This document shows, piece by piece, positions 4,359-60,029 of a DNA stretch of 60,029 nucleotides; position 1 is the first letter of the stretch, and each line of letters begins with the position of its first letter. The notes beneath the pieces were generated by a model. It saw nothing but the letters and a program-made list of their open reading frames with translations. It searched no databases and had not been told where the DNA came from. Where the stretch lies: the IMG/VR virus record IMGVR_UViG_3300036861_000473; one strand, written 5' to 3'. Both the position numbers and the translations under genes were made by a program. The stretch is from a virus. Its lineage: Duplodnaviria; Caudoviricetes.

Positions 4359-4769
4359 ATGCCCACGTCCACGCTCATCCTTGCCCTCGTGGCGGTCGTG
4401 CTCGTGCTGGTCTGCGGCCTGGCGGCCCTGTGGGATGGCCGCCGACGATACCGCCGGCTTGTCGAGGAGCTCCGCGGCCGGCTGGACCGGCAGACCGCCG
4501 CGACCGCCCGGGCGCTGGCCGCGACGATCGCCATCCCACCGCCACCGCCGGCCGCCCAGCTCCGTCCGGGGGCCGGGCGGCGCGCCCACACGGCCATCAG
4601 CGTGCTCGACGCGGCCGACCTGCTCCTCATCACCCGCTACGTACAACAGCGCGCCGAAGCTGGAAGCGCGCTGCACGAAGCGGCCGGCCGAGTCCGAATG
4701 ATCGGGGAGACCGCCGCCGCCGACCTTGGCATCCACGTGCATCTGCGCGGACGAGGACGGACCTCGTGA
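4359..4769 (+). CDS. Membrane-anchored hypothetical protein
   Basis: N-terminal hydrophobic helix; GGAGG RBS. Confidence 0.6.
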   Translation: MPTSTLILALVAVVLVLVCGLAALWDGRRRYRRLVEELRGRLDRQTAATARALAATIAIPPPPPAAQLRPGAGRRAHTAISVLDAADLLLITRYVQQRAEAGSALHEAAGRVRMIGETAAADLGIHVHLRGRGRTS

Positions 4770-4882
4770 AAAAGGACCTGCGGGCCGCCACAGGCTGCGT
4801 GACCGGGATCGGCGTTGGCCTCTGCTTCTGGCTGCTCCTCTTCCTGGCCATCTGGCTGACCAGGGGATGGTGGGGCGGATGA
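4766..4882 (+). CDS. Small membrane protein
   Basis: Single TM helix; overlaps both neighbours by 4 nt. Confidence 0.5.
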   Translation: MKKDLRAATGCVTGIGVGLCFWLLLFLAIWLTRGWWGG

Positions 4883-5958
4883 GCGGCGTGCTGCAGGATG
4901 GCCCGTACTGGCTGTCGCCGACCAAGATCAGCATGGCGCTTGGCTGCCCGCTGCGCGCGCAGCGCCGCTACAAGCTCAAGCTGCGCGAAAAGCCAGCCCT
5001 GCCCGCCTTCCGTGGCAACCAGCTGCATGCCGCGCTTGAGGCGACCAAGGGTCGCCCTGACCTGCCCGGCGTCGCCCACCTGACCACAGAGGTCAGGGAG
5101 GCGTGGCAGTTCAACGCGCCACCACCGTGGACAGGGCTGTTCAGCCAGTGGCTCGCGCTGCATGACGACATGGCCCCACAGATGGCCGAGCTGGACTCCA
5201 TCGCCGACCGGATCAAGACCGACGCCGAAGCCGGCCGGCGCAAGGGCGGCGCCCAGGCCCCCCGCATGACCAACGACTACCGCAAGGCCGAAGCGGACCT
5301 GATCGGCCCATGGCGCGACACCATCGACTCGTTGCGTGCCGCCGAACGCGAGTTGCTGGACGACCCTGAGCGCTCCCCCTGGGAGGCCACGACCAGGAGC
5401 GGGTTCGACGAGTACCAGTCGTCGCTGGACACCGCGCACGCCTACACGGCCTGGTGGCACAACACGCCCGCCGATGATCGGCCGGAGATCCTGCACTGCG
5501 AACGCCGCTTCGAGACCCTGCTGGACCGGGGCCACTTCAAGCTCGGCGGCCGGGTCGACCGCATCGACCTCGACCCGGTCCGGGACGCGCTGGTGGTAGT
5601 CGACTACAAGACCGGGTCGGGCAACTGGAGCAAGCACGAACGGTGGATTCAGGCTGCCTGCTACGCGCTCGGCGTCACCGAGGTGATCGGCCAGCGCCCA
5701 GACCTGGTCCGCTTCATCGACCTCGACAAGGGCCCGTCGACCGACACCTACCCGGTCAAGCCGATGTGGGACATCAAGCTGCTTGACACCTGCCGGTACG
5801 CCCGCGACCTGATCGAAGGCCCCCCGGTCGCCACCTTCGGACCGTGCGGGATCTGCTCCTACACGGACTTGTGCTTTGACCTAGCCGGCAACGGCTTCCA
5901 GTTCCAGGCGCTCGAAGACCTCGAGCAGCCCGCCGCAGAAGAGGTGACCCCAGCATGA
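4879..5958 (+). CDS. PD-(D/E)XK RecB/Cas4-like exonuclease
   Basis: LSPTKI..CP, GNQLHAALE, GRVDRID, VVVDYKTG, QAACYA, CGICSY..C. Confidence 0.88.
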   Translation: MSGVLQDGPYWLSPTKISMALGCPLRAQRRYKLKLREKPALPAFRGNQLHAALEATKGRPDLPGVAHLTTEVREAWQFNAPPPWTGLFSQWLALHDDMAPQMAELDSIADRIKTDAEAGRRKGGAQAPRMTNDYRKAEADLIGPWRDTIDSLRAAERELLDDPERSPWEATTRSGFDEYQSSLDTAHAYTAWWHNTPADDRPEILHCERRFETLLDRGHFKLGGRVDRIDLDPVRDALVVVDYKTGSGNWSKHERWIQAACYALGVTEVIGQRPDLVRFIDLDKGPSTDTYPVKPMWDIKLLDTCRYARDLIEGPPVATFGPCGICSYTDLCFDLAGNGFQFQALEDLEQPAAEEVTPA

Positions 5959-8400: not shown

Positions 8401-8695
8401 CGTGGAGGTGCACACCCTCGTGAGCGAGGTGTTGGTGGACGGCGACCCGATGGTGAAGATCACCCACACGCCCGACGGGCGCGCATGCCCATGGCGGGTC
8501 ACCGCGACCCCACCCGCAGGGCTCGGCGCCCCCGCCGACCGTGACCTGTTCGCCCTGTTCGACACCGAGCCGGCCGCGGTCCAGGCCGCCCAGGCCCTGG
8601 CACAGCGGCTGCATACCGCGCGGGAGCTGCTCCGCCAAGCCAACCAGCAGCTCCGCGAGGCCCGGGCAGGCCTCAAGGAGGCCGAGCATGGCTGA
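8393..8695 (+). CDS. Hypothetical protein, C-terminal coiled coil
   Basis: Coupled ORF, GC3-rich. Confidence 0.6.
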   Translation: MADVEVHTLVSEVLVDGDPMVKITHTPDGRACPWRVTATPPAGLGAPADRDLFALFDTEPAAVQAAQALAQRLHTARELLRQANQQLREARAGLKEAEHG

Positions 8696-8933
8696 CATCC
8701 TCGCCGCCCAAGCCCTCGATGACCAGCTCCTGGCCGTGTTGCGTGACGCGCAGGGGTTCCCGCTGTCCACCCGGCAGGTGTGTGAGGCGGCCGGGCCGAT
8801 GGCATGGCCACCCGACTACATCACCTGGAAGCGGCTCGACACGCTCGCCAAGGCGGGGCGGGTTGAGCGGGTCAAGCTGGCGGGCTGGCGGCAAGTCTGG
8901 TGGCGAGTCTCCGGGACGGTCGGCGATGGGTAG
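8688..8933 (+). CDS. Winged-helix-like DNA-binding protein
   Basis: LLAVLRDAQGFPLSTRQV...RLDTLAKAGRVERV; AAGGAGG RBS. Confidence 0.55.
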   Translation: MADILAAQALDDQLLAVLRDAQGFPLSTRQVCEAAGPMAWPPDYITWKRLDTLAKAGRVERVKLAGWRQVWWRVSGTVGDG

Positions 8934-9321
8934 GCCCAGCGCGGTCTACCAGCCGCAGCTCGCCGGCGAGCGGGAGTGCCTCAACTGTGGTGACCCGTTC
9001 ACGCCGCTCCCGCACCCGGCGTGGGCTGGCCTGTACTGCCAGGAGGCGTGCTGGATCGCCAACAACGGCGGGCCACGCCGCCACCGCACCGCCTACCGGC
9101 CCCGCCCCGCCGCCACACCCCCGCCGCCCCCGCCGCCCCCGCCGCCCCTGGCCACGCCTGTGGCGGATGCGGTGACGCTCGAGGAGGCCGTCGCGGCACT
9201 GGAGGTCCGGCTGCCGCACCTGCAGCCGCCACCGCCGCGCCGGCTGGTCGTGGTCGGCGTGACCGCCTGCCCGCGGTGTGACACCACCCACAAGGTCTAC
9301 GGCTACCGAGGTGCGCCATGA
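8926..9321 (+). CDS. Zinc-finger, Pro-rich hypothetical protein
   Basis: CLNCG...YCQEAC and CPRC motifs. Confidence 0.55.
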   Translation: MGRPSAVYQPQLAGERECLNCGDPFTPLPHPAWAGLYCQEACWIANNGGPRRHRTAYRPRPAATPPPPPPPPPPLATPVADAVTLEEAVAALEVRLPHLQPPPPRRLVVVGVTACPRCDTTHKVYGYRGAP

Positions 9322-9824
9322 ACCTGTGCGGACTCAGCCAGCCTAGCCAGCCAAAGCTGCCCGACGCCGGCCAGGGCACGTGCTGCTACGGCGCAGCGTG
9401 CATGGGGCCGGAGCGGTGCACGTGCTGGGAGCCCGTCTTCGAGGTGGAGCAGACCCCACCCGACTCCCAGACCGTCACCTTGCTCGCCGCCGGCGTCCAG
9501 CCGGTCACCCGCCAGCGTCCCTGCGACGACTGCGCCTACCGGCCCGACTCCCCAGAGCGCCGCGGCGACCCGAACGTCGCCGGCGACCAGGAGCTCCTCG
9601 AGCAGATCGTGCAGCGTGGCGAGCGGTTCTGGTGCCATCAGGGCATCCGCCGTCCGATCGCCTGGCGCCACCCCGCAGGCGTCCAAATCCCCGGCTCACC
9701 CGTCAACTATCAGCCGCCGATCATCGACGGCGTGCCGTACCGCGCCGATGGCACCCCCGCCGAAGTCTGTGCCGGCTGGGCGGCGCGGCGCCGCGCGCTC
9801 GAGACGCCGGAGCGGCAGCCATGA
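9318..9824 (+). CDS. Cys-rich hypothetical protein
   Basis: PCDDCAYRPDS, FWCH, CAGW. Confidence 0.65.
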   Translation: MNLCGLSQPSQPKLPDAGQGTCCYGAACMGPERCTCWEPVFEVEQTPPDSQTVTLLAAGVQPVTRQRPCDDCAYRPDSPERRGDPNVAGDQELLEQIVQRGERFWCHQGIRRPIAWRHPAGVQIPGSPVNYQPPIIDGVPYRADGTPAEVCAGWAARRRALETPERQP

Positions 9825-10309
9825 CCAGCCCGGCGCGCCGCCAGATCGACCTGGCCATGAGCGAGGCGCAATGGCAGGCCACCGTCCTCGACCTCGCACT
9901 CACCCTGCACTGGCGCGCCCTGCACCACCACGACTCCCGCCGGCAGGTCGGCACCGACAACAACGGCAAGCCGATCCTGGTCGGAGACAAGGACGCCGCC
10001 GGCCTGCCCGACTGGCTGTTCATCCGCGAACGACACTTCTTCGCCGAACTCAAAGCCGAAGGCAAACAGCCGACCGCCAAGCAGCTCGAGATCATGGACG
10101 GGCTGCGCAAGGCCGGCGCCGAAGTGCACCTGTGGCACCCCTCCGACTGGCCCGAGGTCGTCATCGCACTCACCGGCCGATGGCACGGCAGCCGCGGCCG
10201 CGTGCTCGAGCTTCCACCGGAGACGCCCCCCCGGCGGACCATCCCCGACGTCGACCACCGCCGCGGCGATAAAGGCGTCTCCCCCGTGGACACCGGAGGT
10301 GCGACGTGA
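9821..10309 (+). CDS. VRR-NUC domain nuclease (resolvase-like)
   Basis: MSEAQWQ, GLPDWL, FAELK, PTAKQ, WHPSDW. Confidence 0.8.
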   Translation: MTSPARRQIDLAMSEAQWQATVLDLALTLHWRALHHHDSRRQVGTDNNGKPILVGDKDAAGLPDWLFIRERHFFAELKAEGKQPTAKQLEIMDGLRKAGAEVHLWHPSDWPEVVIALTGRWHGSRGRVLELPPETPPRRTIPDVDHRRGDKGVSPVDTGGAT

Positions 10310-16800: not shown

Positions 16801-16970
16801 TGGACGTGACCGGGTTCGCCCAGCTCCAGCCGGTCAACATCCGGAATGGCATCCCCTGCTGCCCCTGCTGCAACGAGCCGATGATCCAGGTCGGGGAGAA
16901 CGAGTGGCAGTGCGCCCTCGGCGTGGCGCTGTGGCGCTGGGTGCGGGAGCGGCTGGACGATGCCCAGTAG
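16800..16970 (+). CDS. Small Cys-containing protein
   Basis: TGATG overlap; CCPCC...WQC. Confidence 0.5.
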   Translation: MDVTGFAQLQPVNIRNGIPCCPCCNEPMIQVGENEWQCALGVALWRWVRERLDDAQ

Positions 16971-17313
16971 GCCCTGCCCCGGCCCCGCCAACGGCACCCC
17001 ACCCTGCCCTGCGGGTGCGATGGTGACGGTGCGTCGTAACGTCAAGCAGGCCGGCCGCTGCATCCTGTGCCGGGCGGAGCACAACGCCCGTCACAATGCG
17101 CGCCGGCCGGACCTGCATGATCCCGCCGAGAAGCGTCGGCGCGCGCAGGTGGTCGCCGCCGCTGGCGGCTGGTGCCAGGGCTGGCCTGGCCATCCGCGGC
17201 ATCCGAGCGCCGACCTGACCGCCCACCATGTCGACGGACCCGGCGGCGTCCGTCTCGTGGCGCTTTGCCGCTCCAAAAACAGCGCAATCGGGTCACCGAA
17301 CCGGTCACAGTAG
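16960..17313 (+). CDS. Terminase-associated HNH endonuclease
   Basis: MPSRPC start, WCQGW...DLTAHHV...LVALCRSKNS; typical of the HNH preceding cos/terS. Confidence 0.7.
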   Translation: MPSRPCPGPANGTPPCPAGAMVTVRRNVKQAGRCILCRAEHNARHNARRPDLHDPAEKRRRAQVVAAAGGWCQGWPGHPRHPSADLTAHHVDGPGGVRLVALCRSKNSAIGSPNRSQ

Positions 17314-17411
17314 ACCAAACGGACGACCAGATTGACCGGAAAGATACGATTATACCCTAATTTTGGGGTGGTTTGGGATAGTTTAGACCGATTTTCCCTG
17401 TGGAGTGTCGC

Positions 17412-17424
17412 CAAGCAAGACAAG
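17412..17424 (+). repeat. 13-bp direct repeat CAAGCAAGACAAG, left copy
   Basis: Identical to 21339-21351. Confidence 0.85.
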
Positions 17425-17470
17425 CACCACGCTCAAACGTCTGAATCCGGTCGATCCGGCTGGTGGTTGG

Positions 17471-17500
17471 TTGACATGGTGTCGGACGTTGGCCTACGGT
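17471..17500 (+). promoter_or_regulatory. Promoter with embedded operator
   Basis: TTGACA-N18-TACGGT; operator TGTCGGACGTTGGCCTACG at 17480-17498. Confidence 0.65.
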
Positions 17501-17537
17501 GGTCGGGACACTACCCGCCACGTCGGAGGCCTCCACC

Positions 17538-17816
17538 GTGACCGCCCAGACCGCCCAGACCACACCTGGTGAGCGCGAGGATTTCGGGCACGCGGAACAT
17601 GCCGCCTGTGGCTGCGAGCCGGTCGGGCAGAAACAGATAGCCGATCGGCTGGGCGTGAGCGCGAAGACTCCCAACACCTGGTACGTCCGCGGCCTACTCC
17701 CCAAGCCTTGGGGGCGGGTAGGGAACGGCCCGGCATGGTGCTGGCCCCATCAGATTGTCCCGTGGGCGAAACAGACCAGGCCGAGCCGTTGGGATCGGAG
17801 CGGCGCGAGGGCATGA
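17538..17816 (+). CDS. Small HTH regulator (MerR/AlpA/excisionase-like)
   Basis: PVGQKQIADRLGVSAKTPNTWYVRGLLPKP...PAWCW; GGAGG RBS. Confidence 0.78.
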   Translation: MTAQTAQTTPGEREDFGHAEHAACGCEPVGQKQIADRLGVSAKTPNTWYVRGLLPKPWGRVGNGPAWCWPHQIVPWAKQTRPSRWDRSGARA

Positions 17817-17881
17817 CAGCCTAGGCGCCTACGCGCCCAGCTGCTGCCGCCCTGCTGCCGCCCTGCTGGGCGCGTGCCAAA

Positions 17882-17907
17882 GGGCCCGGGCGCGCGGCCC
17901 GGGCCCC
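17882..17907. terminator. GC hairpin between convergent genes
   Basis: GGGCCCGGGC...GCCCGGGCCC. Confidence 0.5.
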
Positions 17908-17920
17908 AAGGGTGAAGCGG

Positions 17921-19063
17921 CTAGGGGATGCGAACGGGCATGATCAGGCCGCGGAAGCCGTTACCATCGGTCACCAAAGCCGGCTTGAGGCTATCCCGGA
18001 GCTGCATCGTCCCGTGGTCGACCGCGGCCAGCAGCTCACGTAGGTACAGCGGCTTGAAGCTGGTAGGGGTGAACGGCGTGTAGCCTGCCAGTTTCAGGCC
18101 TGGTAGTTCCGCCTCGACCTTGCCGATGTCCTGCCGCTTGCACGAGGCGGCGATGGTCGCGCCGCTCGCCTCGAGGATGATCGGCTCGCGTCCGAACGAT
18201 GCCACGATCGCCGCGGCGGCCGCCGCACCATCGGTGACGTCGATGGTTGGCACATCGCCCGTCATGGTCGGGATCAGCCGCTCCCAAGTGGAGGGAAACT
18301 CGCCCTCTATGGCCCGGGCCCAGAACATCGACGGCCCAACCTGCACGCGCACCTCGCCCGTGCCGTGTGTGTCGGTGCCCGTGCCATGCCACCAGGCGCC
18401 GCCCTCGGTCGCCTTGTACAGCGCGATGGCCTGCTTGACCAGGGTGAGCGCCCGGGCGGGTAGCAGGAAGCAAAACGCCGAATCGTCTAGCTGTTCGGTC
18501 TGGTAGGTGTGGAGGCGATAGGAATCGGTCGCGGTCGCGGTCAGCGTGCCCTGGTCGCGCTTGACCTGGACCGCGGTCAACACTGGGCGAGCCTCATCGC
18601 CGCTGGTCGCTGGCAGTACCCGCCGCGCCCACGTGCCAAGCAGGCCGAGGTCGGAGGTCACGCGCACCTCGCCCTCTGAGACCTCGCCGCGCAACGTCGG
18701 ATAGTCCTCGAGCGCGTTGACGTGGAGCGCCGCATGCAGGCCGCCAGCATGCATGCGCAGCAGGCCGGCTTCCTGGTCGAGCTCGAGCCGCGCGAGTGTT
18801 CCCTTTGGCTGGCGTCCCTTGAGGGTTGCGGCGAGCTCGCGCAACGGCACCACGACGGCACCAGTGTCGACCACCAGCGACGAGTCAAGCCGCGTCGTGC
18901 TGGTCAACTCAAGGTCCGTCGTGGTGATCGTGACCGGGCGGCCCCAGCCGGCCGCCTCGATCTTCACTCCGCCCAGAACGGGCAGGGTCGGACGACGCGA
19001 GCACGTGCCAGCCGCGACTTTGAGCGCGCGGACGAGCTCGGCATGGTCAACGTCGAAATGCAA
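17921..19063 (-). CDS. dnaN: DNA polymerase III beta sliding clamp homologue
   Basis: RPTLPVLGGV, TTDLE, EDYPTL, DEARPVLTAV, ATDSYRL, IEGEFP, KPAL, LIMPVRI; TTG start after AAGGGA, but may be frameshift-fused to the upstream ORF. Confidence 0.88.
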   Translation of the reverse strand: MHFDVDHAELVRALKVAAGTCSRRPTLPVLGGVKIEAAGWGRPVTITTTDLELTSTTRLDSSLVVDTGAVVVPLRELAATLKGRQPKGTLARLELDQEAGLLRMHAGGLHAALHVNALEDYPTLRGEVSEGEVRVTSDLGLLGTWARRVLPATSGDEARPVLTAVQVKRDQGTLTATATDSYRLHTYQTEQLDDSAFCFLLPARALTLVKQAIALYKATEGGAWWHGTGTDTHGTGEVRVQVGPSMFWARAIEGEFPSTWERLIPTMTGDVPTIDVTDGAAAAAAIVASFGREPIILEASGATIAASCKRQDIGKVEAELPGLKLAGYTPFTPTSFKPLYLRELLAAVDHGTMQLRDSLKPALVTDGNGFRGLIMPVRIP

Positions 19064-19169
19064 ACCGCCTGTCCCTTGGGTAGCCGGCTTCGGCGGGGTA
19101 GGTGGCGGGGTAGGCCGCGGCGGAGTAGCCGGCTGGGCAGGCTTCGGTGGCTGGGCGGGCTTCGGTGGG

Positions 19170-19535
19170 CTAGCCGGCTTGCTTGGCGCCGCGCTCGAGA
19201 TTGGCCGCTTGACCGCTGGCCGCTTGCTTGGCTGCTGCCTGCTTGGCGGCCTCGCGCTTGACCTCCGCGGCGGCCGCGTTGTAGTCGGTTTGGGACTTGC
19301 GGTAGTTGCGGCCCGTGTACCGTTTGACGTAGCGGTAGGTGACGCGGCCACCCTCGAGGCGAATCCACGCAACCCATGCTGCCGGGCGCGGTCGATAGTC
19401 GGTTTGGTAGCCGTCCGAAGCCTCACCAGACCAGAGCTCGACTTTGACTGTGCGGCCGCCAGCAATCGTGACCTCTGCACGGTCGACAAGGCTTGCCCTG
19501 GCAGGAACCGCCGTATTGTTACCATCGCGCATCAT
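19170..19535 (-). CDS. Hypothetical protein (possible N-terminal part of clamp fusion)
   Basis: AGAAGGGG RBS; MMRDGNN...AEVKREAAKQ. Confidence 0.6.
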   Translation of the reverse strand: MMRDGNNTAVPARASLVDRAEVTIAGGRTVKVELWSGEASDGYQTDYRPRPAAWVAWIRLEGGRVTYRYVKRYTGRNYRKSQTDYNAAAAEVKREAAKQAAAKQAASGQAANLERGAKQAG

Positions 19536-19713
19536 CCGCCCCTTCTGGTGGCGTTTCGTCGTCGGTCTCGTCGTCGTCGGTCCAGCAGCGGGCATGGAGG
19601 CGGCCGCCCTCAAGCCGTAGTTCCACGTGCAAGCCGGATAGGGGATCCGCCCAATGCAGAACGCCCTCCAAGCCCCGTAGCAGGGCCCAGAGGGCGAGCA
19701 GGCGACTACGCAC
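19519..19713 (-). CDS. Small protein with acidic tail
   Basis: Overlaps both neighbours; DDDETDDETPPEGADD. Confidence 0.5.
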   Translation of the reverse strand: MRSRLLALWALLRGLEGVLHWADPLSGLHVELRLEGGRLHARCWTDDDETDDETPPEGADDARW

Positions 19714-20677
19714 CTTGCACCGTTGGCGGGATCGAGGCCTCGCGGCGGCCGCGCACCTCGGGATAGGGGATTTTGTCGTTCCACGTGTAGCCGCTCGGGA
19801 CAGTGAGTGACTTCGGATTCACCCGAAGCACTGGGCGCCAACGATTCCAGCGGTCCAGCACCTCGTCGCCCTTGGCGAAATCGCCCGGGCCCCACACTTT
19901 CGCGCCGCTCGCCTGCTTGGCTGCCACCACTTGGCGCCAGTGCTCGAGCTCGTCGGCGTTCTGCTGCTGCTGGGCTTGCAGCTGCTCCGCCCATTGGCCA
20001 GTAGCCGCCTCATGGTCTTCGACGTAGGCGACCTCGCCGCGCCCGTTCCGGTACTGCCGCTGGTAGCCCTGCAGCTTCCGGGCGATGTCGCGCTGCTCCG
20101 CCTCCAGCCGCTCAATCCGCCGCAACGTCGTGCCGAGAGACTCGCGCCGCTGCTTGTACCGCTCCGATGTCGCGGCCGCCTGCTGGTAGTGGCTCGCCTT
20201 GCCGTCTTCCTCGATCGAGCGGCGGATAGCGTTGTCGGCCCGCTTCAAAGCGGCCCGATGGCCACGCTCGGAGTGATGGCCGATCAGGATCGGCTGACCA
20301 GGCGGGATCGGCTCGAGGATGTCATGGAAGCGCTGGAATGCGGCCGCGGCCGCAGACTCCGCCCGTTCGGCCCGATCGGCGTAGGTGTCCGCGCGCTGTT
20401 CCGCCCGGGCCTCCCGTTCCGCCTCCGCCTCCGCGAACGCTCGAGGTGTCTCGTCAATCGACACCTCGACCTGGAAGCCTGCCGCGCGCAGCTGCTTGGC
20501 GGCCTGGTCGATGCGCCAGGTCTTCGCGGCCCGATCCCTGGACTGTTGGATGATCCATGCGCGGATACCGGGCGCCCAGCGGAAACCGGCCGTCTTGAGG
20601 ATCGGCGCCGAACCATCGCCGCGGGCAGTGCCCTCGACAATGGTTCCCTCCGGGCGAGTATGGGTGATGGTGATCAT
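19706..20677 (-). CDS. DUF3560-like protein
   Basis: MITITHTRPEGTIVEGTARGDG...IPPGQPILIGHHSERGHR...RRIERLEAE...VLRVNPKSLTV. Confidence 0.82.
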   Translation of the reverse strand: MITITHTRPEGTIVEGTARGDGSAPILKTAGFRWAPGIRAWIIQQSRDRAAKTWRIDQAAKQLRAAGFQVEVSIDETPRAFAEAEAEREARAEQRADTYADRAERAESAAAAAFQRFHDILEPIPPGQPILIGHHSERGHRAALKRADNAIRRSIEEDGKASHYQQAAATSERYKQRRESLGTTLRRIERLEAEQRDIARKLQGYQRQYRNGRGEVAYVEDHEAATGQWAEQLQAQQQQNADELEHWRQVVAAKQASGAKVWGPGDFAKGDEVLDRWNRWRPVLRVNPKSLTVPSGYTWNDKIPYPEVRGRREASIPPTVQGA

Positions 20678-20787
20678 GCTTCGGGCCCTTCCTGGTCTTC
20701 CTGCTCGAGGTCGCTCGAATCGGGCACCCAAGGGTTGGGGATACCGCCGTACTCGCGGTCATAGGTGGAGGTACGGTCGATCACCAT
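20674..20787 (-). CDS. Small acidic protein (37 aa)
   Basis: TGATG/ATGA coupling on both sides; MVIDRTSTYDREYGG... Confidence 0.55.
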   Translation of the reverse strand: MVIDRTSTYDREYGGIPNPWVPDSSDLEQEDQEGPEA

Positions 20788-20963
20788 CACCTCGCCCTGC
20801 CATGGTTGGCGGCCTTGTAGCCCTCGTCGTAGGCACGGTGCAGGTCGGCATGTTCGGGATCGGACGGCACCATGCGCTTGAAATGGCGGACTAGGGCCCA
20901 GTCGCCATGCTTGGCGGCCTGCCCTGCCCGCTTGCCGATGTCGTAGGCTTCCTGCTCTGTCAT
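20787..20963 (-). CDS. Small hypothetical protein (58 aa), absent from ORF track
   Basis: MTEQEAYDIGKRAG...AYDEGYKAANHGRAR; GAGG RBS. Confidence 0.65.
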   Translation of the reverse strand: MTEQEAYDIGKRAGQAAKHGDWALVRHFKRMVPSDPEHADLHRAYDEGYKAANHGRAR

Positions 20964-20966
20964 GGC

Positions 20967-21116
20967 CTACCTCGCTCTGCCGTGGTTGGCGCCGCCGCAA
21001 TGGCAGTCACAGGCCGGGCCTTGTGCTGCCATGCAGGCCGCGGCGCATGGCTCCGGCTTGCTGGTGAAGATCGCCCAGCCCTTGACCGCCTCGAGCACCC
21101 AATCGAGCCTGCTCAT
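20967..21116 (-). CDS. Small Cys-cluster protein (49 aa), absent from ORF track
   Basis: CAAACMAAQGPACDCHCGGANHGRAR; AGAAGGG RBS; first gene after the promoter. Confidence 0.65.
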   Translation of the reverse strand: MSRLDWVLEAVKGWAIFTSKPEPCAAACMAAQGPACDCHCGGANHGRAR

Positions 21117-21130
21117 CCTGTCCGCCCTTC

Positions 21131-21183
21131 TGTAGGTCAACTACCGACAGTCACAGTGTAGGACAACCACCTACAGTAGTCAA
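21131..21183 (-). promoter_or_regulatory. Near-consensus leftward promoter with two operators
   Basis: TTGACT-N17-TACACT (21183-21155); operators at 21157-21175 and 21131-21149. Confidence 0.75.
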
Positions 21184-21338
21184 CTGCAAACCTACAGGTC
21201 AGAGCGGGGATGGGCCTCGAAAATCACGATCGCAAACGCCCTGCTGACACCCCGGCCGACCTGTCTCGCACCATGTACGCATCGGCCCGGGCCGCCCTGG
21301 CGGGCATGATCGGTTCGACAGGAGCGGGAAGTTTTGGG

Positions 21339-21351
21339 CAAGCAAGACAAG
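21339..21351 (+). repeat. 13-bp direct repeat CAAGCAAGACAAG, right copy
   Basis: Identical to 17412-17424. Confidence 0.85.
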
Positions 21352-21389
21352 TAACGTGGGCGGCGACCGAGCGTTCCAGCGAGAGTGAA

Positions 21390-21490
21390 GATATGGGCCT
21401 ATTTGTTCTAGTTTATACCCATATTTTCGTCCAATATGACAGGTTTACACCCTTCTGATCCTGTCAAACTGGACATTAACTCGGTCAATG
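21390..21490. promoter_or_regulatory. AT-rich putative terminase-binding/packaging region
   Basis: TAGTTTATACCCATATTTT resembles motifs at 17350-17395; inverted repeat GTCCA..TGACAGG...CCTGTCA..TGGAC; directly upstream of terS. Confidence 0.5.
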
Positions 21491-21534
21491 GAGACACGTT
21501 GGATGCCGCATAGCGGCCTAAAGGGGTGAACCGG

Positions 21535-21945
21535 ATGCCGACGGTGCCGAAGTTCGAGCCGCGCCGGCGCAACGCCCGCGTCGGCCCCGTCAAGCTCCCC
21601 CCGGAGGGCCGCAAGGGACGCGCGCCGACCTGGCCACTCGACACGGTCCTGACCGTCGAGCAGCGCAAGCTGTGGGCCAAGCTGTGGCGCACCCCGCAGG
21701 CGGTCGAGTGGCAGCGGCTCGGCTGGACCCGCGTGGTGGCCCGCTACGTCCGCGTCGTGCTCTGGGCCGAAGAGACGCTCGACTCCAAGGACCTGGCGCA
21801 GGCGAGTGCGCTGGAGGACCGGCTGGGGCTGACACCCAAGGCGATGCGGCTGCTGCTGTGGACGATCGGCGACGATGACGCCGGCGAGGAGCTGGAGCAG
21901 CAGCGCCCAGCGGACGTGCGCGCTCGCCTGCGAGCGGTCGACTAG
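21535..21945 (+). CDS. terS: Terminase small subunit
   Basis: GRAPTWPL...WAKLWRTPQAVEW...LEDRLGLTPKAMRLLLWTI. Confidence 0.85.
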   Translation: MPTVPKFEPRRRNARVGPVKLPPEGRKGRAPTWPLDTVLTVEQRKLWAKLWRTPQAVEWQRLGWTRVVARYVRVVLWAEETLDSKDLAQASALEDRLGLTPKAMRLLLWTIGDDDAGEELEQQRPADVRARLRAVD

Positions 21946-21946
21946 C

Positions 21947-22345
21947 ATGACCAAGGCGGCCATCTGCGCGGCCTGCTGGGACATCGTCTCGCCCCGTCGC
22001 GCGTGGGAGACGGACCGGTCGTGGCGCTGGTGCGAGTGCGACCACATCGGCGTCCGCTGGCGCGACGGCGCCCTCGGCTTGCTCGAGGTCGCCAGCCTGC
22101 ACGGCGCCGACGGTGTCCGCGTGCTCGGCCTGAACAACATGTTCCTCGAAGAGGGCATGCGCACGCGCGACGCGGACCCACAGGGCTGGCGCGCCTGGCA
22201 TGAGGCAACCTGCGAGCAGGTCGAACCGCACTACCTGTTCCACAAGGACAAGCGCAATTGTTGGGCGCTGTTGGTCCGCCCGGGCGAGAGCGGCGACGTG
22301 TTTCTCATGGACTACTTGACAGCCAAGCGTGAGGCGGTCGAGTAG
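21947..22345 (+). CDS. Hypothetical protein between terS and terL
   Basis: CAACWD...CECDH; GC3-rich. Confidence 0.65.
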   Translation: MTKAAICAACWDIVSPRRAWETDRSWRWCECDHIGVRWRDGALGLLEVASLHGADGVRVLGLNNMFLEEGMRTRDADPQGWRAWHEATCEQVEPHYLFHKDKRNCWALLVRPGESGDVFLMDYLTAKREAVE

Positions 22346-22348
22346 CCG

Positions 22349-24001
22349 ATGCCGTGGCGGGGCCCGGAAGTGCCGGGCGAGTTCCCCACGCTCGGCTACC
22401 TGATCGGCGAGTGGATCGAGGCGAACTGCGTCATCCCTGACGGGCTGCTGCAGGGCCGCGAGTACCGGCTGACCGACGAGATGTGGCGGTTCCTGCTGCG
22501 CTACTACCGCCTCCACCCCGACGCCCGGCCGATCGACGTGGCGATGCTCGAGGCGAAGCTCCGCCACCCCGAGCTCGAGCTGCCCCCCTCGCCGTTCTTC
22601 TACCGCGGCGGGCTGCTGATGCGCGCGCAGAAGTGGGGGAAGGGCCCGTTCGCCGCGTCCATCATCCTCGGGGAGACGTTCGGGCCGGTCAGCTTCGACG
22701 GGTGGGACGACAAGGGGGAGCCGGTCGGCCGGGAGCAGCCGACCCCATGGGTGCAGATCGTCGCCACGGCGGAGGAGCAGACCGACAACACCTGGCTGTG
22801 CGTGTACGAGATGGCCAGCCGCGGGGAGATCGCCAACACCCCCGGGATCGACATCGGCATCGAGGACATCAACCTGCCCAGCGGCGGGAAGATCGAGCCG
22901 CGCAGCTCCAGCGGCAAATCGCGGCTGGGCGCGCGGACCACCTTCGACCTGTTCGACGAGACCGGGCTGATGCTCGAGTCCAACGGCGGCGTCCACCTGG
23001 CCACCACGATGAAACGCAACATCGGCGGGATGCGTGGCCGGTGGCTTGAGACGACCAACGCCTACGACCCTTCCGAGCAGAGCGTCGCACAGCGCACCCA
23101 CACCTCCCCAGCCGAGGACGTGCTGATCGACTACCGGCCCCCGTCACGCCGGCCGGACCTCCGCGACGACCAGGGTTGCCTGGAGCTGCTCGACGAGGTG
23201 TACGGCGACTCGTGGTGGGTGGACCGCCGGCGGATCCTCGCGGACGCCCGTGACCCGGCGGTGTGCCCGACCCCGGCGGATGCGCTCAGGTTCTTCTTCA
23301 ACGTGCTCGAGGTTGGCCAGTCCTCTGCGGTGGACGGGGCCCGGTGGGACAGCAAGGCCCGGCCCGGCAGTCTGGTGCCGAACGAGCTGATCTGCCTCGG
23401 GTTCGACGGGTCACGCGCGCTCGACCTGACCAGCCTCATCGCCAGCCGCGTGACGGATGGCCGCTGGTTCCACCTGCGGTCGTGGAAGCCGTCCGAGTAC
23501 CCGGACCACAGGGTGCCGCGCGTGGAGGTCGACCAGGCCGTCACCGACGCGTTCGACGCCTACCAGGTGTGGTGCATGTTCGGCGACCCGTACCGGTGGC
23601 AGGAGTACTTCGACATCTGGGAGGCACGCTGGCCGACCCGCCTGGACGGCAAGCAGTCGACCCGGGTGATCGAGTTCCCCACCAACGTCGAGCATCGCAT
23701 GGACGACGCGATCACCCGGTTCCTTGAGCACTTCGCTGGCGGGTTCACCCACGACGGCGATCCGCTGCTCGCCGAGCATGCGAAGGCGGCGGCGCTGGCG
23801 AAGGGGAAGCGGCGGCAGCCCCGCCCGAACGAGGACCCATCCATTCCCCGGTTCTTCCAGCGGATCGTCAAGAAACGCGAGGTGGCCAACATCGACGCGT
23901 TCGTCGCTGGGCTGCTCGCCGAGGCGGCGCGTGGGCAGGCGATCGAGGATGGCGCGCTTGCCCAGCGTCGGGTGGTGCTTGAGGGTCCGCTGATGGTCTA
24001 G
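22349..24001 (+). CDS. terL: Terminase large subunit
   Basis: RAQKWGKG (Walker A), LFDET (Walker B), ETTNA, LGFDGS, IDAFVA. Confidence 0.93.
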   Translation: MPWRGPEVPGEFPTLGYLIGEWIEANCVIPDGLLQGREYRLTDEMWRFLLRYYRLHPDARPIDVAMLEAKLRHPELELPPSPFFYRGGLLMRAQKWGKGPFAASIILGETFGPVSFDGWDDKGEPVGREQPTPWVQIVATAEEQTDNTWLCVYEMASRGEIANTPGIDIGIEDINLPSGGKIEPRSSSGKSRLGARTTFDLFDETGLMLESNGGVHLATTMKRNIGGMRGRWLETTNAYDPSEQSVAQRTHTSPAEDVLIDYRPPSRRPDLRDDQGCLELLDEVYGDSWWVDRRRILADARDPAVCPTPADALRFFFNVLEVGQSSAVDGARWDSKARPGSLVPNELICLGFDGSRALDLTSLIASRVTDGRWFHLRSWKPSEYPDHRVPRVEVDQAVTDAFDAYQVWCMFGDPYRWQEYFDIWEARWPTRLDGKQSTRVIEFPTNVEHRMDDAITRFLEHFAGGFTHDGDPLLAEHAKAAALAKGKRRQPRPNEDPSIPRFFQRIVKKREVANIDAFVAGLLAEAARGQAIEDGALAQRRVVLEGPLMV

Positions 24002-24578: not shown

Positions 24579-24763
24579 GGCCGAGCGTCGGACGGATCGT
24601 CCACTACGTGTCCTATGGCACGCCAGGGCCGGTCGTCGGGCTGTGCGTGCTGAATCCGACCGGCCTGTTCTTCCACGCGATCGCCGACGGTGGCTGCCGC
24701 CAGGACGAGGACGGCAAGGCTGGCGGGACGTGGCACTGGCCCGAGCGGGTCGAGGAGAGCTGA
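24575..24763 (+). CDS. Conserved small phage protein
   Basis: PSVGRIVHY...GTWHWPERV. Confidence 0.7.
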   Translation: MRPSVGRIVHYVSYGTPGPVVGLCVLNPTGLFFHAIADGGCRQDEDGKAGGTWHWPERVEES

Positions 24764-24764
24764 C

Positions 24765-26207
24765 GTGGGCCTGGCCGAGCGCGTCCTGGAGGTTTACCGG
24801 AGCCGTCGTGGCGGCGCGGAGCTGGCATCCCCGGTCGCCGGCGCGATCGCCCCCCCGTTCGAGGGCCTGACCGGGCATGCGGCCAGTTACGACCCGGAGA
24901 AGTATGGCCAGTATCTGGCCACCTCCAACGAGGTCTACTCCGCGGCGGCGTTGCGCGCCCGGCACATGTCGAGCCTCAACCTGCAGGTCTTCAACGGCTC
25001 CGGCCCGGAGCGCACCGAGCTCACCAGCGGCCCCGCAGTCGACCTGCTCCGCCGGGTCAACCCGTTCTGGACCCGCCGGCGGCTCGACCGGATGGACGAG
25101 CTGGCCATGTGCCTGTGGGGGGAGTCGTTCTGGGCGGTCGAGGGCGCGCTGGAGGGCAACCCGCAGGAAATCTGGTGGTGCAAGCCCACCCAGATGCGCC
25201 CCGTCCCCCACCCGAAGTGGTATCTCGAGAAGTTCCTGTACCTGCCGCTCACCGGCGGGCCGACCATCGAGTTCGCCCCGGGCGAGGTGGTGTGGTTCCG
25301 CTACCCGAACCCGAACGACGAGTTCCAGTCGCTGTCGCCGCTGACCGCCGCGTTGCGGGCCGCCGACACCGGCTCGGCGATGCTGCAGGCCAACGCCAAC
25401 CTGTTCCGGCAGGGCCTGATGGCCGGCGGGCTGATCGTCCCCGACCACGACAAGGTCACCTTCTCCAAGCAGCAGCAGTTGGAGCTGGAGGAGATGCTGG
25501 AGCGGCGCTGGAGTGGCGTCGACAAGGCGCACCGCTGGAGCGTGCTCCGCTTCGAGGCGCAGCTCCGTGCGCTGAACGTCACCCCCAAGGATGCCCAGTT
25601 CGTCGAAGGCCTGGGGCTGATGGCCCGCCAGGTCTGGAATGCGCTGGGGATTCCCGCGCCGCTCATGAACGACCTCGCCTACGCCACGCTCAGCAACATG
25701 CGGGAGTTTCGTCAGCAGCTGTGGACCGACGCGCTCCGCCCGGACTCCCAGTTGCGCGCCGACGAGATCGTGCAGCAGTTCCTCCCCATGTTCGCCCGCA
25801 CCCGCGGTCGCCCAGCGACCGCCGATCATGCCGAGTTCGACTACTCCCAGGTGCCCGAGCTGCAGCAGCTCGCCAGCGAAGGGTGGGACCGGGACCGCCG
25901 GGCGATCGAGATCGGCGCGCTCACCATCAACGAGTGGCGGCGCCGCCAGGGCCTCCCCGAGGTCGCGTGGGGTGACGCCTGGTGGGCGCCGGTCAACAAG
26001 AGCGCCGTCACCGGCGCGACCAGCAAGCCGCAGGGCGACACCACGCCGACCGGCGGCAACGGCGGGGATGGCGGCAATGGCGGCGGCAACGGCCAGGTCG
26101 ACCAGCAGGAGGCGGCCAGCATGATGGCCGCCCTCGAGCTGGCGCAGATGGAGCTGCGGCACGGCCCATTCGCCCTCAACGGGCGCAACGGAAAGGGGCA
26201 CCGATGA
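24765..26207 (+). CDS. Portal protein, HK97 family
   Basis: LLRRVNP, LCLWGESF, EVVWFRYPNP, SLSPL, LGIPAPL, TINEWR..GLP. Confidence 0.93.
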   Translation: MGLAERVLEVYRSRRGGAELASPVAGAIAPPFEGLTGHAASYDPEKYGQYLATSNEVYSAAALRARHMSSLNLQVFNGSGPERTELTSGPAVDLLRRVNPFWTRRRLDRMDELAMCLWGESFWAVEGALEGNPQEIWWCKPTQMRPVPHPKWYLEKFLYLPLTGGPTIEFAPGEVVWFRYPNPNDEFQSLSPLTAALRAADTGSAMLQANANLFRQGLMAGGLIVPDHDKVTFSKQQQLELEEMLERRWSGVDKAHRWSVLRFEAQLRALNVTPKDAQFVEGLGLMARQVWNALGIPAPLMNDLAYATLSNMREFRQQLWTDALRPDSQLRADEIVQQFLPMFARTRGRPATADHAEFDYSQVPELQQLASEGWDRDRRAIEIGALTINEWRRRQGLPEVAWGDAWWAPVNKSAVTGATSKPQGDTTPTGGNGGDGGNGGGNGQVDQQEAASMMAALELAQMELRHGPFALNGRNGKGHR

Positions 26208-59898: not shown

Positions 59899-60029
59899 CT
59901 AGCATGCCGGGCGAGGGCTGTCGCCTGGGATGTCCCGCGGGTCGGGAACGCGCTCCAACCAGCGGCCGACCTGCAACGTGTATCCCTTGGCGTAACGGCG
60001 GGTCGTGTTCGCCGATGCGTGGCCGAGGA
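59899..60029 (-). CDS. int: C-terminal end of the tyrosine recombinase (includes terminal overlap)
   Basis: LGHASANTTRRYAKGY...PRPAC then TAG at 59901-59899. Confidence 0.85.
   Translation of the reverse strand, partial: LGHASANTTRRYAKGYTLQVGRWLERVPDPRDIPGDSPRPAC
59903..60029. repeat. 127-bp terminal overlap
   Basis: Identical to 1-127. Confidence 0.95.

What the first reader, a model, noticed from the sequence alone, without database searches (positions are those of the whole stretch)
17412..21351. Self-regulated 3.9 kb module bounded by 13-bp direct repeats, sitting inside the packaging site
Seen: the terminase-type HNH (16960-17313) and terS (21535) are separated by a module bounded by CAAGCAAGACAAG (17412 and 21339). 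Outside each repeat is an AT-rich stretch with shared motifs (TTATACCCTAATTTT and TAGTTTAGACCGATTTT on the left, TAGTTTATACCCATATTTT on the right). Removing the module at the repeats restores a compact HNH-site-terS junction with a GTCGCC...GGCGAC dyad. The cargo is a leftward operon (three micro-ORFs, DUF3560-like, acidic ORF, unknown ORF, beta clamp) plus one HTH regulator. Known: HNH-cos-terS adjacency is common in HK97-like phages, and T5 and SPO1 keep host-takeover genes in long terminal repeats. Inference: this is either a collapsed ~4 kb terminal repeat/first-injected takeover module in a temperate actinophage, or an element that inserts at and duplicates the packaging site (satellite-like, possibly packaged separately). 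Best candidate here for an undescribed system.
Basis: partly seen in the sequence, partly recalled or inferred. Interest (0 to 1): 0.85.

Follow-up and report, generated by a model that had tools for sequence, protein, structure and literature searches.

The report
Accessory gene module beside phage cos
A 3.9-kb block of extra genes (a DNA sliding clamp, a plasmid-type protein of unknown function, small proteins and a regulator) lies at the very end of a soil actinobacterial phage's chromosome, next to its DNA-packaging cut site and not inside it, so it looks like a mosaic insertion that may be the first DNA to enter a host.

Summary
The window is a complete, circularly assembled 59.9-kb phage genome. 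The exact 13-mer is real, occurs only at 17412 and 21339, and is beyond chance for the two non-coding stretches (2 of 5000 shuffles).

The repeats do not bound an element inside the packaging site. This terminase lineage has a conserved cos core, CTCGC-N4-TGTACG. It lies at the first bases of nine relatives' contigs and of isolated Streptomyces phage Kromp. In the window it occurs once, at 21265-21279, between the two 13-mers. Deleting between the repeats would therefore remove cos.

In relatives the HNH gene ends 37-222 nt before the core. Here the distance is 3951 nt. The segment is thus a lineage-specific insertion between HNH and cos, at the right end of the packaged DNA. It holds two convergent transcription units. 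None of its genes lies near terL in the 40 relatives.

I found no support for a terminal repeat or a satellite. A first-entering, plasmid-leading-region-like role is plausible but untested. This scan has noted similar HNH-to-terS arrays on other DNA. The meaning of the 13-mer remains unexplained.

The parts
16960..17313 (+). Terminase-associated HNH endonuclease gene (117 aa)
   Evidence: phrog_1271 HNH, E 0.0014. tblastn matches the HNH ORFs beside cos in L008, L035 and L209.
17314..17411 (.). AT-rich spacer (46-48% GC) with motifs at 17350-17364 and 17379-17395. Relatives have nothing like it after their HNH gene, so it is probably part of the inserted DNA.
   Evidence: Relatives' HNH-to-cos spacers are G-rich.
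17412..17424 (+). Left copy of the exact 13-mer
17471..17500 (+). Candidate promoter of the HTH gene (TTGACA, 18 nt, TACGGT), read by eye
   Evidence: Sequence. The consensus scan did not report it, so this is inference.
17538..17816 (+). Small HTH DNA-binding protein (92 aa from GTG 17538, preceded by GGAGG; the ORF is open from 17499)
   Evidence: phrog_597 DNA binding protein, E 3.8e-7 and 6e-6.
17831..17906 (.). Two GC-rich hairpins (17831-17874 and 17882-17906) between the convergent HTH and clamp genes; candidate two-way terminators
   Evidence: -71.2 kcal/mol, z -2.56 on the + strand; a 10-bp perfect stem on both strands.
17921..19063 (-). Full-length, very divergent beta sliding clamp (380 aa from TTG 19063)
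   Evidence: Pfam DNA_pol3_beta 8.5e-13 and DNA_pol3_beta_2 3.8e-10. phrog_947 4.9e-42. 14 phage records match over at least 94% of the length at 21-27% identity.
19170..19535 (-). Unknown ORF (orfU, 121 aa) with a Lys/Ala-rich tail, followed by 27/18-nt tandem repeats at 19083-19187
   Evidence: No Pfam or PHROG hit. Repeats.
19519..19713 (-). Small ORF with an acidic C-terminus (64 aa)
   Evidence: No family hit.
19706..20677 (-). DUF3560 protein (323 aa)
   Evidence: PF12083, E 9.7e-27. 373 homologues, the best non-self at 72% identity. AlphaFold2 model pLDDT 89.4, with no PDB fold match at E <= 0.001.
20674..21116 (-). Three micro-ORFs: 20674-20787, 20787-20963 (weak RMF-like match below the cut-off) and 20967-21116 (Cys-rich, phrog_6842)
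21155..21183 (-). Sigma-70-like leftward promoter (TTGACT, 17 nt, TACACT). The palindrome TGTAGG-N7-CCTACA (21157-21175) overlaps its -10 box and spacer.
   Evidence: the only promoter-like site in 16900-21700. Sequence.
21200..21285 (+). cos region: a G-tract, then ACCCCGGCC, then the core CTCGC-N4-TGTACG at 21265-21279. Predicted left end of the packaged DNA at about 21260.
   Evidence: The exact core occurs once in the window. It aligns with relatives' cos regions. The same core starts 5-8 nt from the first base of nine relatives' contigs and of phage Kromp.
21339..21351 (+). Right copy of the exact 13-mer, about 80 nt inside the predicted left genome end
21363..21513 (.). AT-rich spacer (39-46% GC) upstream of terS, with a motif at 21409-21427 and short repeats. 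Candidate terS-binding or late-promoter region.
   Evidence: The function is inference.
21526..21945 (+). Small terminase subunit gene (terL follows at 22349-24001)
   Evidence: Terminase_7, E 7e-4. tblastn matches the terS of 36 of 40 relatives.

Best explanation
The stretch is the right-terminal accessory region of a cos-packaging actinobacterial siphophage that uses an HNH-assisted, HK97-style terminase. About 3.9 kb of lineage-specific DNA (roughly 17314 to 21200) has been acquired between the terminase-associated HNH gene and the cos site. The cos site is intact at 21200-21285, with the predicted left end near 21260.

The insert holds two convergent transcription units separated by hairpin terminators. 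One is a rightward HTH regulator gene. The other is a leftward seven-gene operon: three micro-ORFs, DUF3560, an acidic ORF, orfU and a beta clamp. The operon is driven by a sigma-70-like promoter with an overlapping palindrome, only 80-105 nt from the right end of the packaged chromosome.

Inferred, not shown: if the last DNA packaged is the first to leave the capsid, this operon enters the cell first. It would then act as an early establishment or takeover unit, analogous to a plasmid leading region, switched off through the palindromic operator. The 13-mers are not target-site duplications. Most likely they are protein-binding sites or a relic of recombination.
For: Shown.
(1) The record is a complete genome with a 127-bp assembly overlap.
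(2) A conserved cos core lies 44-273 nt upstream of terS in relatives. Nine contigs begin 5-8 nt before it. The exact pattern occurs once each in 10 terL-relative loci. It is at nt 6-20 of the isolated phage Kromp, whose record begins at terS and ends with an HNH gene.
(3) G001, a 54.2-kb linear relative, starts at the core and ends about 95 nt after its HNH gene.
(4) In the window the exact core occurs once, at 21265-21279, 261 nt upstream of terS. Its flanks align with the relatives' cos regions.
(5) HNH-type ORFs end 37-222 nt before the core in 12 of 14 loci. Pfam finds an HNH family at E <= 0.01 in 8 of 10 ORFs tested. The prophage L209 shows the same arrangement. In the window the gap is 3951 nt.
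(6) None of the eight module proteins is found in the 40 terL-relative loci.
(7) GC3 of the module genes is 0.71-0.84, against 0.91-0.94 for terS, orfX and terL.
(8) The leftward promoter and the hairpins are.
(9) X2 and X1 contigs bridge both 13-mers without a break.

For the leading-region analogy. DUF3560 matches at least 5000 plasmid records, and 3931 of the 5000 best are conjugative. Only 4 partial matches occur in 50,697 phage records. In the one IncF plasmid examined it lies among antirestriction, ssb, parB, psiB and psiA genes. In the one actinobacterial plasmid examined it lies 1.7 kb from a MobF relaxase. L044 and L045, which belong to another terL lineage, also have a DUF3560 operon divergent from their packaging genes.
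Against: No raw reads were available, so the physical ends at about 21260 are inferred from homology, not observed. A 44-nt weight matrix built from the relatives scores the window site poorly: 1.2, against 20-46 for the training sites. Only the 15-nt core and about 12 nt upstream are conserved.

The exact 13-mer is non-random, and this explanation does not account for it. The relatives are only 40-70% identical in TerL. No close relative with or without the module was found, so neither the direction of the event (gain here or loss elsewhere) nor the exact borders of the insert are fixed.

The module is not a conserved cassette. In 160 loci around DUF3560 homologues only 4 carry a clamp, and there it lies in the other order. 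'Last in, first out' has been challenged for lambda in vitro (PMC10287942; abstract start seen). No anti-defence function is known for any gene in the module.
Confidence: 0.7

Rival explanations
1. A mobile, satellite-like element inserted into the packaging site and duplicated a 13-bp target. It can excise at the repeats and may be packaged on its own.
For: The exact direct 13-mers flank the segment and are beyond chance. The segment is absent from relatives and has lower GC3. An excised circle would carry the cos core.
Against: The conserved cos core and its upstream flank lie between the repeats. They sit at the same position relative to terS as in relatives. The right repeat therefore cannot be the right border of the insertion, and excision would leave a phage without cos. 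No integrase, transposase, replication initiator, terS or capsid-size gene was found among the 10 ORFs scanned. No inverted terminal repeats stand out. No relative has the 13-mer in its HNH-terS spacer. The same set of genes is not found together elsewhere. At 3.9 kb it is far below the size of known satellites (recalled).
Confidence: 0.05
2. The 3.9 kb is a collapsed long direct terminal repeat of the T5 or SPO1 type, present at both ends of the virion DNA.
For: The segment lies at the expected genome end. It holds early-looking, leftward, promoter-proximal genes. IMG/VR classes the record as having 'direct terminal repeats'.
Against: That terminal repeat is only the 127-bp overlap at 1-127 and 59903-60029, far from the module. 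The lineage uses a cos-type core at which contigs and Kromp begin. The relative G001 is classed linear, with no end repeats. In run X1 the contig covering 17276-21858 has a depth of 13.4, against 14.1, 16.3, 10.6 and 14.2 for neighbouring contigs. That is contig-level depth and a weak hint only.
Confidence: 0.04
3. The 13-mer, perhaps with the neighbouring AT-rich motif, is a functional binding site for the module's HTH protein or for TerS. One copy lies upstream of each inward-facing promoter. Together they would link the module to the late operon, or loop out the 3.9 kb. This adds to the best explanation and does not replace it.
For: The exact 13-mer is shared only by these two non-coding stretches. 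The AT-rich motifs are unique to the same two stretches. The left copy is 47 nt upstream of the by-eye HTH promoter. The right copy lies in the cos-to-terS spacer, where terS sites are expected by analogy with lambda cosB (recalled).
Against: There are no binding data. The motif order differs on the two sides: AT motif then 13-mer on the left, 13-mer then AT motif on the right. The AT-motif matches alone are near chance by my estimate, and the longer alignments are not significant. The word is built from CAAG units, so slippage could have made it twice.
Confidence: 0.3

Closest known systems
HNH-cos-terS packaging module of HK97-like phages. The isolated example seen here is Streptomyces phage Kromp, MH744420.1.
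   Same: The HNH gene is the last gene before the right end, and terS and terL are the first genes after the left end. The same cos core, CTCG(G/C)-N4-TGTACG, starts 5 nt from the left end.
   Different: In Kromp, HNH is the last annotated gene, 287 nt from the right end. In 12 of 14 metagenomic relatives the HNH-type ORF ends 37-222 nt before the core. Here 3951 nt with nine genes lie in between. The general role of HNH in cos cleavage is recalled (Kala et al. 2014, not seen).
cos-adjacent hotspots of accessory genes in P2-like phages and P4 satellites (Rousset et al. 2022, PMC9122126; passages read)
   Same: A variable, horizontally exchanged gene block lies directly beside the cos site of a temperate phage.
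   Different: Those hotspots hold anti-phage defence systems expressed from the prophage, in Enterobacteria. This block holds a clamp, DUF3560 and small ORFs with no known defence or anti-defence family, and it lies on the HNH side of cos.
Leading regions of conjugative plasmids (Samuel et al. 2024, PMC11541004; listing and abstract start only)
   Same: The block is predicted to enter first and has its own promoter. It contains DUF3560, which lies in the IncF leading region among antirestriction, ssb, psiB and psiA genes in the one plasmid examined.
   Different: Entry here is as double-stranded DNA from a capsid, not single-stranded from oriT. No ssb, psiB, ardA or methylase is present. The entry order is inferred only.
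First-step-transfer DNA and long terminal repeats of T5, and the SPO1 host-takeover module
   Same: Early genes are concentrated at a genome end.
   Different: There is no evidence of a terminal repeat. Packaging is cos-type.
Leading-region-like arrays between HNH and terS in Bradyrhizobium-type HK97-like prophages, noted earlier in this scan (e1-6219084, e1-5943728, e1-5936653)
   Same: Same place (between the packaging HNH gene and terS/cos) and same opposite-strand orientation. One has its own sigma-70-like promoter, and one contains a DUF3560 gene.
   Different: Those arrays are 10-12 kb with 20-26 small genes and repeated hairpins. This one is 3.9 kb, lies in an actinobacterial phage, has a clamp, and has no repeated gene-start hairpin. 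Those notes are AI notes that I did not test.

Membership tests
cos site of HNH-assisted (HK97-style) terminase phages | Conserved cleavage-site core shared with relatives, upstream of terS | tested here: met
   The exact core is at 21265-21279 and occurs once in the window. It aligns with 8 relatives. The same core is at the start of Kromp.
cos site of HNH-assisted (HK97-style) terminase phages | HNH endonuclease gene immediately upstream of cos | tested here: not met
   The HNH gene ends 3951 nt before the core. In 12 of 14 relatives the distance is 37-222 nt. The gene is present but displaced.
cos site of HNH-assisted (HK97-style) terminase phages | Physical genome ends (cohesive termini) at the site | not testable with these tools
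   Runs X1-X3 are held only as contigs. The ends are inferred from relatives' contig ends and from Kromp.
Long direct terminal repeat (T5/SPO1-like) | The repeat is present at both virion ends, giving two-fold depth with sharp borders | tested here: inconclusive
   Only contig-level depth is available. The X1 module contig has 13.4, against 10.6-16.3 for its neighbours. There are no raw reads.
Long direct terminal repeat (T5/SPO1-like) | Relatives with the same terminase package with terminal repeats | tested here: not met
   G001 is classed linear, without end repeats. It starts at the cos core and ends after its HNH gene. Kromp begins at the core.
Transposable or integrative element with target-site duplication | A recombinase or transposase gene in the cargo | tested here: not met
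   No such Pfam or PHROG family among the 10 ORFs of 16960-22345.
Transposable or integrative element with target-site duplication | The direct repeats are the borders of the inserted DNA, and relatives have an empty site with one copy | tested here: not met
   The ancestral cos region (21200-21285) lies between the repeats. No relative has the 13-mer at up to 2 mismatches in its HNH-terS spacer.
Phage satellite (PICI, cf-PICI, P4-like) | Integrase, replication module and packaging-redirection genes in an island of about 10 kb | tested here: not met
   None was found. The segment is 3.9 kb. The typical size is recalled.
Beta sliding clamp (DnaN) | Three-domain clamp: N-terminal, central and C-terminal domains | tested here: met
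   The Pfam N-terminal and central domains score over their cut-offs. phrog_947 covers positions 4-366 of 368. There are full-length matches to annotated phage clamps. The C-terminal Pfam domain was not detected on its own.
Plasmid leading region (works-like comparison, not membership) | It enters first, is expressed early, and carries establishment or anti-defence genes | tested here: inconclusive
   The position next to the predicted last-packaged end is met by inference. DUF3560 is a leading-region gene in 1 of 1 IncF plasmid examined. Timing and function were not tested.

The most novel reading that the evidence does not exclude
The module is a phage counterpart of a plasmid leading region. 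It would be a self-contained operon that enters first, placed at the last-packaged end between HNH and cos. It carries a plasmid leading-region protein (DUF3560, whose predicted fold has no solved relative), small RMF/CrpP-like and Cys-rich proteins, and its own sliding clamp with which to capture the host replicase. The phage has no DnaE or PolA. The two 13-mers would be sites for a regulator that loops out and silences the 3.9 kb once the phage is established.
Probability: 0.15. Interest if true: 0.6.

Novelty: new variant of a known kind. Interest (0 to 1): 0.3.

Why it matters
The finding corrects a tempting reading. The repeat-flanked block is not an element inside cos and not a terminal repeat. 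It gives a usable cos signature, CTCGC-N4-TGTACG about 5 nt from the left end, for a widespread group of soil actinophages. This signature lets genome ends be placed in metagenomic contigs.

Together with earlier notes of this scan on Bradyrhizobium-type prophages, it adds an actinobacterial case to a possibly general pattern. In that pattern plasmid-type 'establishment' genes sit between the packaging HNH gene and cos, at the end expected to enter the cell first. [quoted passage not shown] It also flags DUF3560, a very common leading-region protein, as having a confidently predicted fold with no solved relative.

Tried and rejected
Read-level tests were not possible. The three runs that hold the stretch (X1, X2, and X3 at 0.25 of the words) are kept only as Logan contigs. 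No read starts, ends or true depth could be seen. Among the 15 joints listed (24 more were not shown) none joins 17424 to 21352. All have short sides of 21-42 nt and look like other organisms. This absence proves nothing. X3 holds scattered exact pieces of both the module and its flanks at low depth, so it is the same phage and not an empty-site relative.

No close relative was found. TerL relatives reach at most 70% identity in viral contigs and 50% in genomes (3 loci). An exact 34-nt stretch across the right 13-mer has no match in viral contigs (the window's own record may be left out). blastn against isolated phages matched only terL.

The search for the module elsewhere failed. The single DUF3560 protein found no viral relatives. 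With alignments, 80 viral and 80 metagenome loci were fetched. Only DUF3560 itself recurred, plus a distant clamp in 4 viral loci in a different order.

The 44-nt weight matrix of the relatives' cos region gave no strong hit in the window (best 6.3 at 27067; the true site scored 1.2). Only the short core is conserved. The HNH and clamp searches in five relatives' records found nothing. The HNH miss is a sensitivity failure, because L008 has the gene.

The 'same operator in both inward promoters' idea (e1-6259742) and a colinear duplication of the two AT-rich stretches were tested. Both alignments score 35, a value reached by 75 of 300 shuffles, so neither is significant.

The fold search of the DUF3560 model gave no match at E <= 0.001. 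'DUF3560' occurs in only 5 papers of the library, never in a title or abstract. Supplements are closed, so the gene-family tables of Samuel et al. 2024, which may list DUF3560, could not be seen. PHROG scans of 10 other genes of the phage gave little: an exonuclease and the portal.

Full report
WHAT THE WINDOW IS. The window is one whole IMG/VR virus record, rated 100% complete and classed as having direct terminal repeats. Those repeats are only a 127-bp overlap, 1-127 = 59903-60029. That is the signature of a circular assembly, so the genome is 59,902 bp. G+C is about 70%. The nearest isolated phages by DNA match only in terL, and they are Streptomyces phages.

CHECK OF THE OBSERVATION. The 13-mer is exact at 17412 and 21339, with no other copy at up to one mismatch. 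The genome holds 343 exact direct-repeat pairs of 13 nt or more, so such pairs are common. This is the only pair with G+C below 0.5. When the two non-coding stretches (17314-17537 and 21141-21525) are shuffled in 40-nt blocks, only 2 of 5000 trials share a word of 13 or more. The repeat is therefore real and not chance.

The AT-rich motifs are present and unique to the two stretches, matching 11 of 13 and 13 of 15 bases. Longer alignments between the stretches are not significant: 75 of 300 shuffles reach the observed score.

- HNH, 16960-17313
- a small HTH protein, phrog_597
- a beta clamp, 17921-19063
- orfU
- an acidic ORF
- DUF3560, 19706-20677
- three micro-ORFs
- terS (21526), an unknown ORF, and terL (22349)

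WHERE COS REALLY IS. I fetched 40 loci that encode TerL relatives at 40-70% identity. Many of these contigs begin just upstream of terS. A loose pattern search in the 500 nt before terS in 36 loci showed a shared core, CTCGC-N4-TGTACG, often followed by GGTCTGG. It lies 44-273 nt before terS. Nine loci (L010, L013, L019, L020, L021, L024, L038, L039, L041) begin 5-8 nt before it.

The exact 15-nt pattern occurs once each in 10 of these loci. Otherwise it occurs only in my copy of the window and in one unrelated locus, among 203 loci.

G001 is a 54.2-kb linear relative rated 91% complete. It starts at the core and ends, at its other end, about 95 nt after an HNH gene.

Streptomyces phage Kromp is an isolated phage. 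Its record begins at terS and ends 287 nt after an annotated HNH endonuclease gene. It carries the core at nt 6-20.

A Catenuloplanes prophage (L209) has HNH, the core and terS within 300 nt.

The core therefore marks the left cohesive end of this terminase lineage. That the record ends of Kromp are the physical ends rests on the usual practice for such isolates (recalled).

In the window the exact core occurs once, at 21265-21279 on the + strand, 261 nt before terS. Matches with up to one mismatch are expected 1.34 times in shuffles, so an exact match at this particular place is very unlikely by chance. Its upstream flank (ACCCCGGCC and a G-tract) aligns with eight relatives. A 44-nt weight matrix built from the relatives scores the site poorly, so only the core and its near flank are conserved. 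The predicted left end is near 21260.

The core lies between the two 13-mers, 60 nt left of the right copy. Recombination at the repeats would delete cos. It would not 'restore a compact HNH-site-terS junction'. The right 13-mer lies in the cos-to-terS spacer, about 80 nt inside the packaged DNA. It cannot be the right border of an insertion.

What is true is that extra DNA lies between HNH and cos. In 12 of 14 loci with upstream sequence, an ORF with an HNH-type C-terminus ends 37-222 nt before the core (I read the motifs from the printed C-termini, and my regular expression flagged 5). Pfam HNH families hit 8 of 10 of these ORFs at E <= 0.01, 6 of them over the curated cut-off. L023 and L029 show no such ORF. 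In the window the distance is 3951 nt.

None of the eight module proteins is found in the 40 loci at E <= 1e-4. The module genes have GC3 of 0.71-0.84, against 0.91-0.94 for terS, orfX and terL. The simplest reading is a gain of about 3.9 kb (about 17314-21200) in this lineage. Without close relatives, however, the direction of the event and its exact borders are not fixed.

ANATOMY OF THE INSERT. The only sigma-70-like site in 16900-21700 is a leftward TTGACT-17-TACACT at 21183..21155. It lies just upstream of the first micro-ORF, and a 6-bp palindrome (21157-21175) overlaps its -10 box and spacer. That places the promoter 80-105 nt from the predicted right end.

The operon runs leftward through seven ORFs to the clamp gene. 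The first micro-ORF region overlaps the start of DUF3560, as seen in the coordinates. The HTH gene is convergent, and I see a TTGACA-18-TACGGT upstream of it by eye only. Two strong hairpins fill the 104 nt between the converging genes.

TERMINAL REPEAT AND SATELLITE. No raw reads are held. An X2 contig covers 13000-22255 without a difference. An X1 contig covers 17276-21858. Both 13-mers are therefore bridged as in the record. The X1 contig's depth (13.4) equals that of its neighbours (10.6-16.3), which is a weak hint against a two-fold repeat. The lineage's defined cos ends argue against a long terminal repeat. No recombinase, replication or packaging-redirection gene is present, and no relative carries the 13-mer between HNH and terS.

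WHAT THE GENES SUGGEST. The clamp is full-length but at most 27% identical to the 14 matching phage records. The phage has no DnaE or PolA family match, so the clamp would have to work with a host polymerase (inference).

DUF3560 has 373 homologues among the candidates scored, the best non-self at 72% identity, mostly actinobacterial. It matches at least 5000 plasmid records, and 3931 of the best 5000 are conjugative. It matches only 4 isolated-phage records, and those only partly. In the one IncF plasmid I opened it lies in the classical leading region. In a Pseudonocardia plasmid it lies 1.7 kb from a MobF relaxase. Its AlphaFold2 model is confident (pLDDT 89.4), but no solved structure matches at E <= 0.001. 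The term appears in 5 papers of the library, never in a title or abstract.

Two viral contigs of another terminase lineage (L044, L045) also have a DUF3560 operon divergent from their packaging genes.

The module as a set does not recur: 0 of 80 metagenome loci and 4 of 80 viral loci hold a clamp, and there it lies in a different order.

MECHANISM PROPOSED. Shown: the position next to cos, the promoter-like site, the palindrome, the convergent layout and the plasmid-type cargo. Inferred: packaging starts at cos and runs through terS, so this end is packaged last. If 'last in, first out' holds, the operon enters first and is read from its own promoter before the rest of the genome arrives. That would make it an establishment unit like a plasmid leading region. 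The rule is generally accepted but has been challenged in vitro for lambda (PMC10287942; abstract start only). The HTH protein or the phage repressor would shut the operon off at the palindrome. I put the structural part at 0.7 and the functional part at about 0.35-0.4.

WHAT STAYS UNEXPLAINED. The exact 13-mer. One copy lies 47 nt upstream of the by-eye HTH promoter. The other lies in the cos-to-terS spacer. Both are next to a similar AT-rich motif, but in opposite order. It may be a shared binding site for the HTH protein or TerS, a relic of the recombination that brought the insert, or independent slippage of CAAG units.

COMPARISON WITH WHAT IS KNOWN. The packaging layout is the HK97 or Kromp type, with the HNH gene displaced. 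Variable accessory blocks beside cos are published for P2-like phages and P4 satellites (PMC9122126; passages read). Plasmid leading regions are described in PMC11541004 (listing only). [quoted passage not shown]

This scan has noted 10-12-kb arrays in the same place in Bradyrhizobium-type prophages, one of them with a DUF3560 gene. I did not test those AI notes. The present case is therefore a small actinobacterial variant of a recurring pattern. It is not a new kind of element.

VERDICT. This is a new variant of a known kind, with interest 0.3.

Noticed in passing
L013, L019, L021, L039 nt 6-21; L206 (Kromp) nt 6-20; window 21265-21279: A conserved cos core, CTCG(C/G)-N4-TGTACG, starts about 5 nt from the left genome end. 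It is shared from Kromp (36% TerL identity by tblastn) to relatives at 70% identity. It can be used to place genome ends in metagenomic actinophage contigs.
   Followed up: yes
window 19706-20677 (-): The DUF3560 protein gives a confident AlphaFold2 model (pLDDT 89.4): small beta domains at both ends joined by long helices. No solved structure matches at E <= 0.001. The family is very common in conjugative plasmids.
   Followed up: partly
L212 (NZ_CP035835.1), locus 8632-9993: In an IncF plasmid the DUF3560 gene lies in the leading region, between antirestriction/DUF1380 genes and a methyltransferase, ssb, parB, psiB and psiA. Only one such plasmid was opened.
   Followed up: partly
L045 4340-12001; L044 3061-10993: Two viral contigs with an unrelated large terminase (phrog_2) also carry a DUF3560 operon divergent from the packaging genes, with a small excisionase-type HTH gene downstream.
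   Followed up: partly
L012 3436-4873 (+): The closest TerL relative has two adjacent ORFs matching phrog_12598, a family that the window's clamp also hits. They lie about 3.5-5 kb upstream of its HNH gene. They may be a split or half-size clamp-like pair.
   Followed up: no
window 19083-19187: Four copies of a 33-nt unit at 27/18-nt spacing lie in the gap between orfU and the clamp start. In the clamp frame they read as a Pro/Lys/Ala-rich run. A longer clamp form or a frameshift link to orfU was not examined.
   Followed up: no
window 21126-21199: Around the leftward promoter, CTGTAGG and CCTACAG words and three GTTGAC/GTCAAC words recur. This looks like an operator array.
   Followed up: partly
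window 21439-21495: Between the right 13-mer and terS there is an inverted pair, TGACAGG and CCTGTCA, and two GTCAA-N2-3-G(A)GACA direct repeats (read). They are candidate terS sites.
   Followed up: no
window 17378, 17404, 17433: Run X1 holds a minor variant contig (depth 3 of 16) with three base changes spanning the left 13-mer. A second strain therefore has the same left junction.
   Followed up: no
window, whole genome: No DnaE (PF07733) or PolA (PF00476) match in the phage, although it encodes a clamp. An exonuclease (4726-5958, phrog_69) and the portal (24690-26207) were identified.
   Followed up: partly
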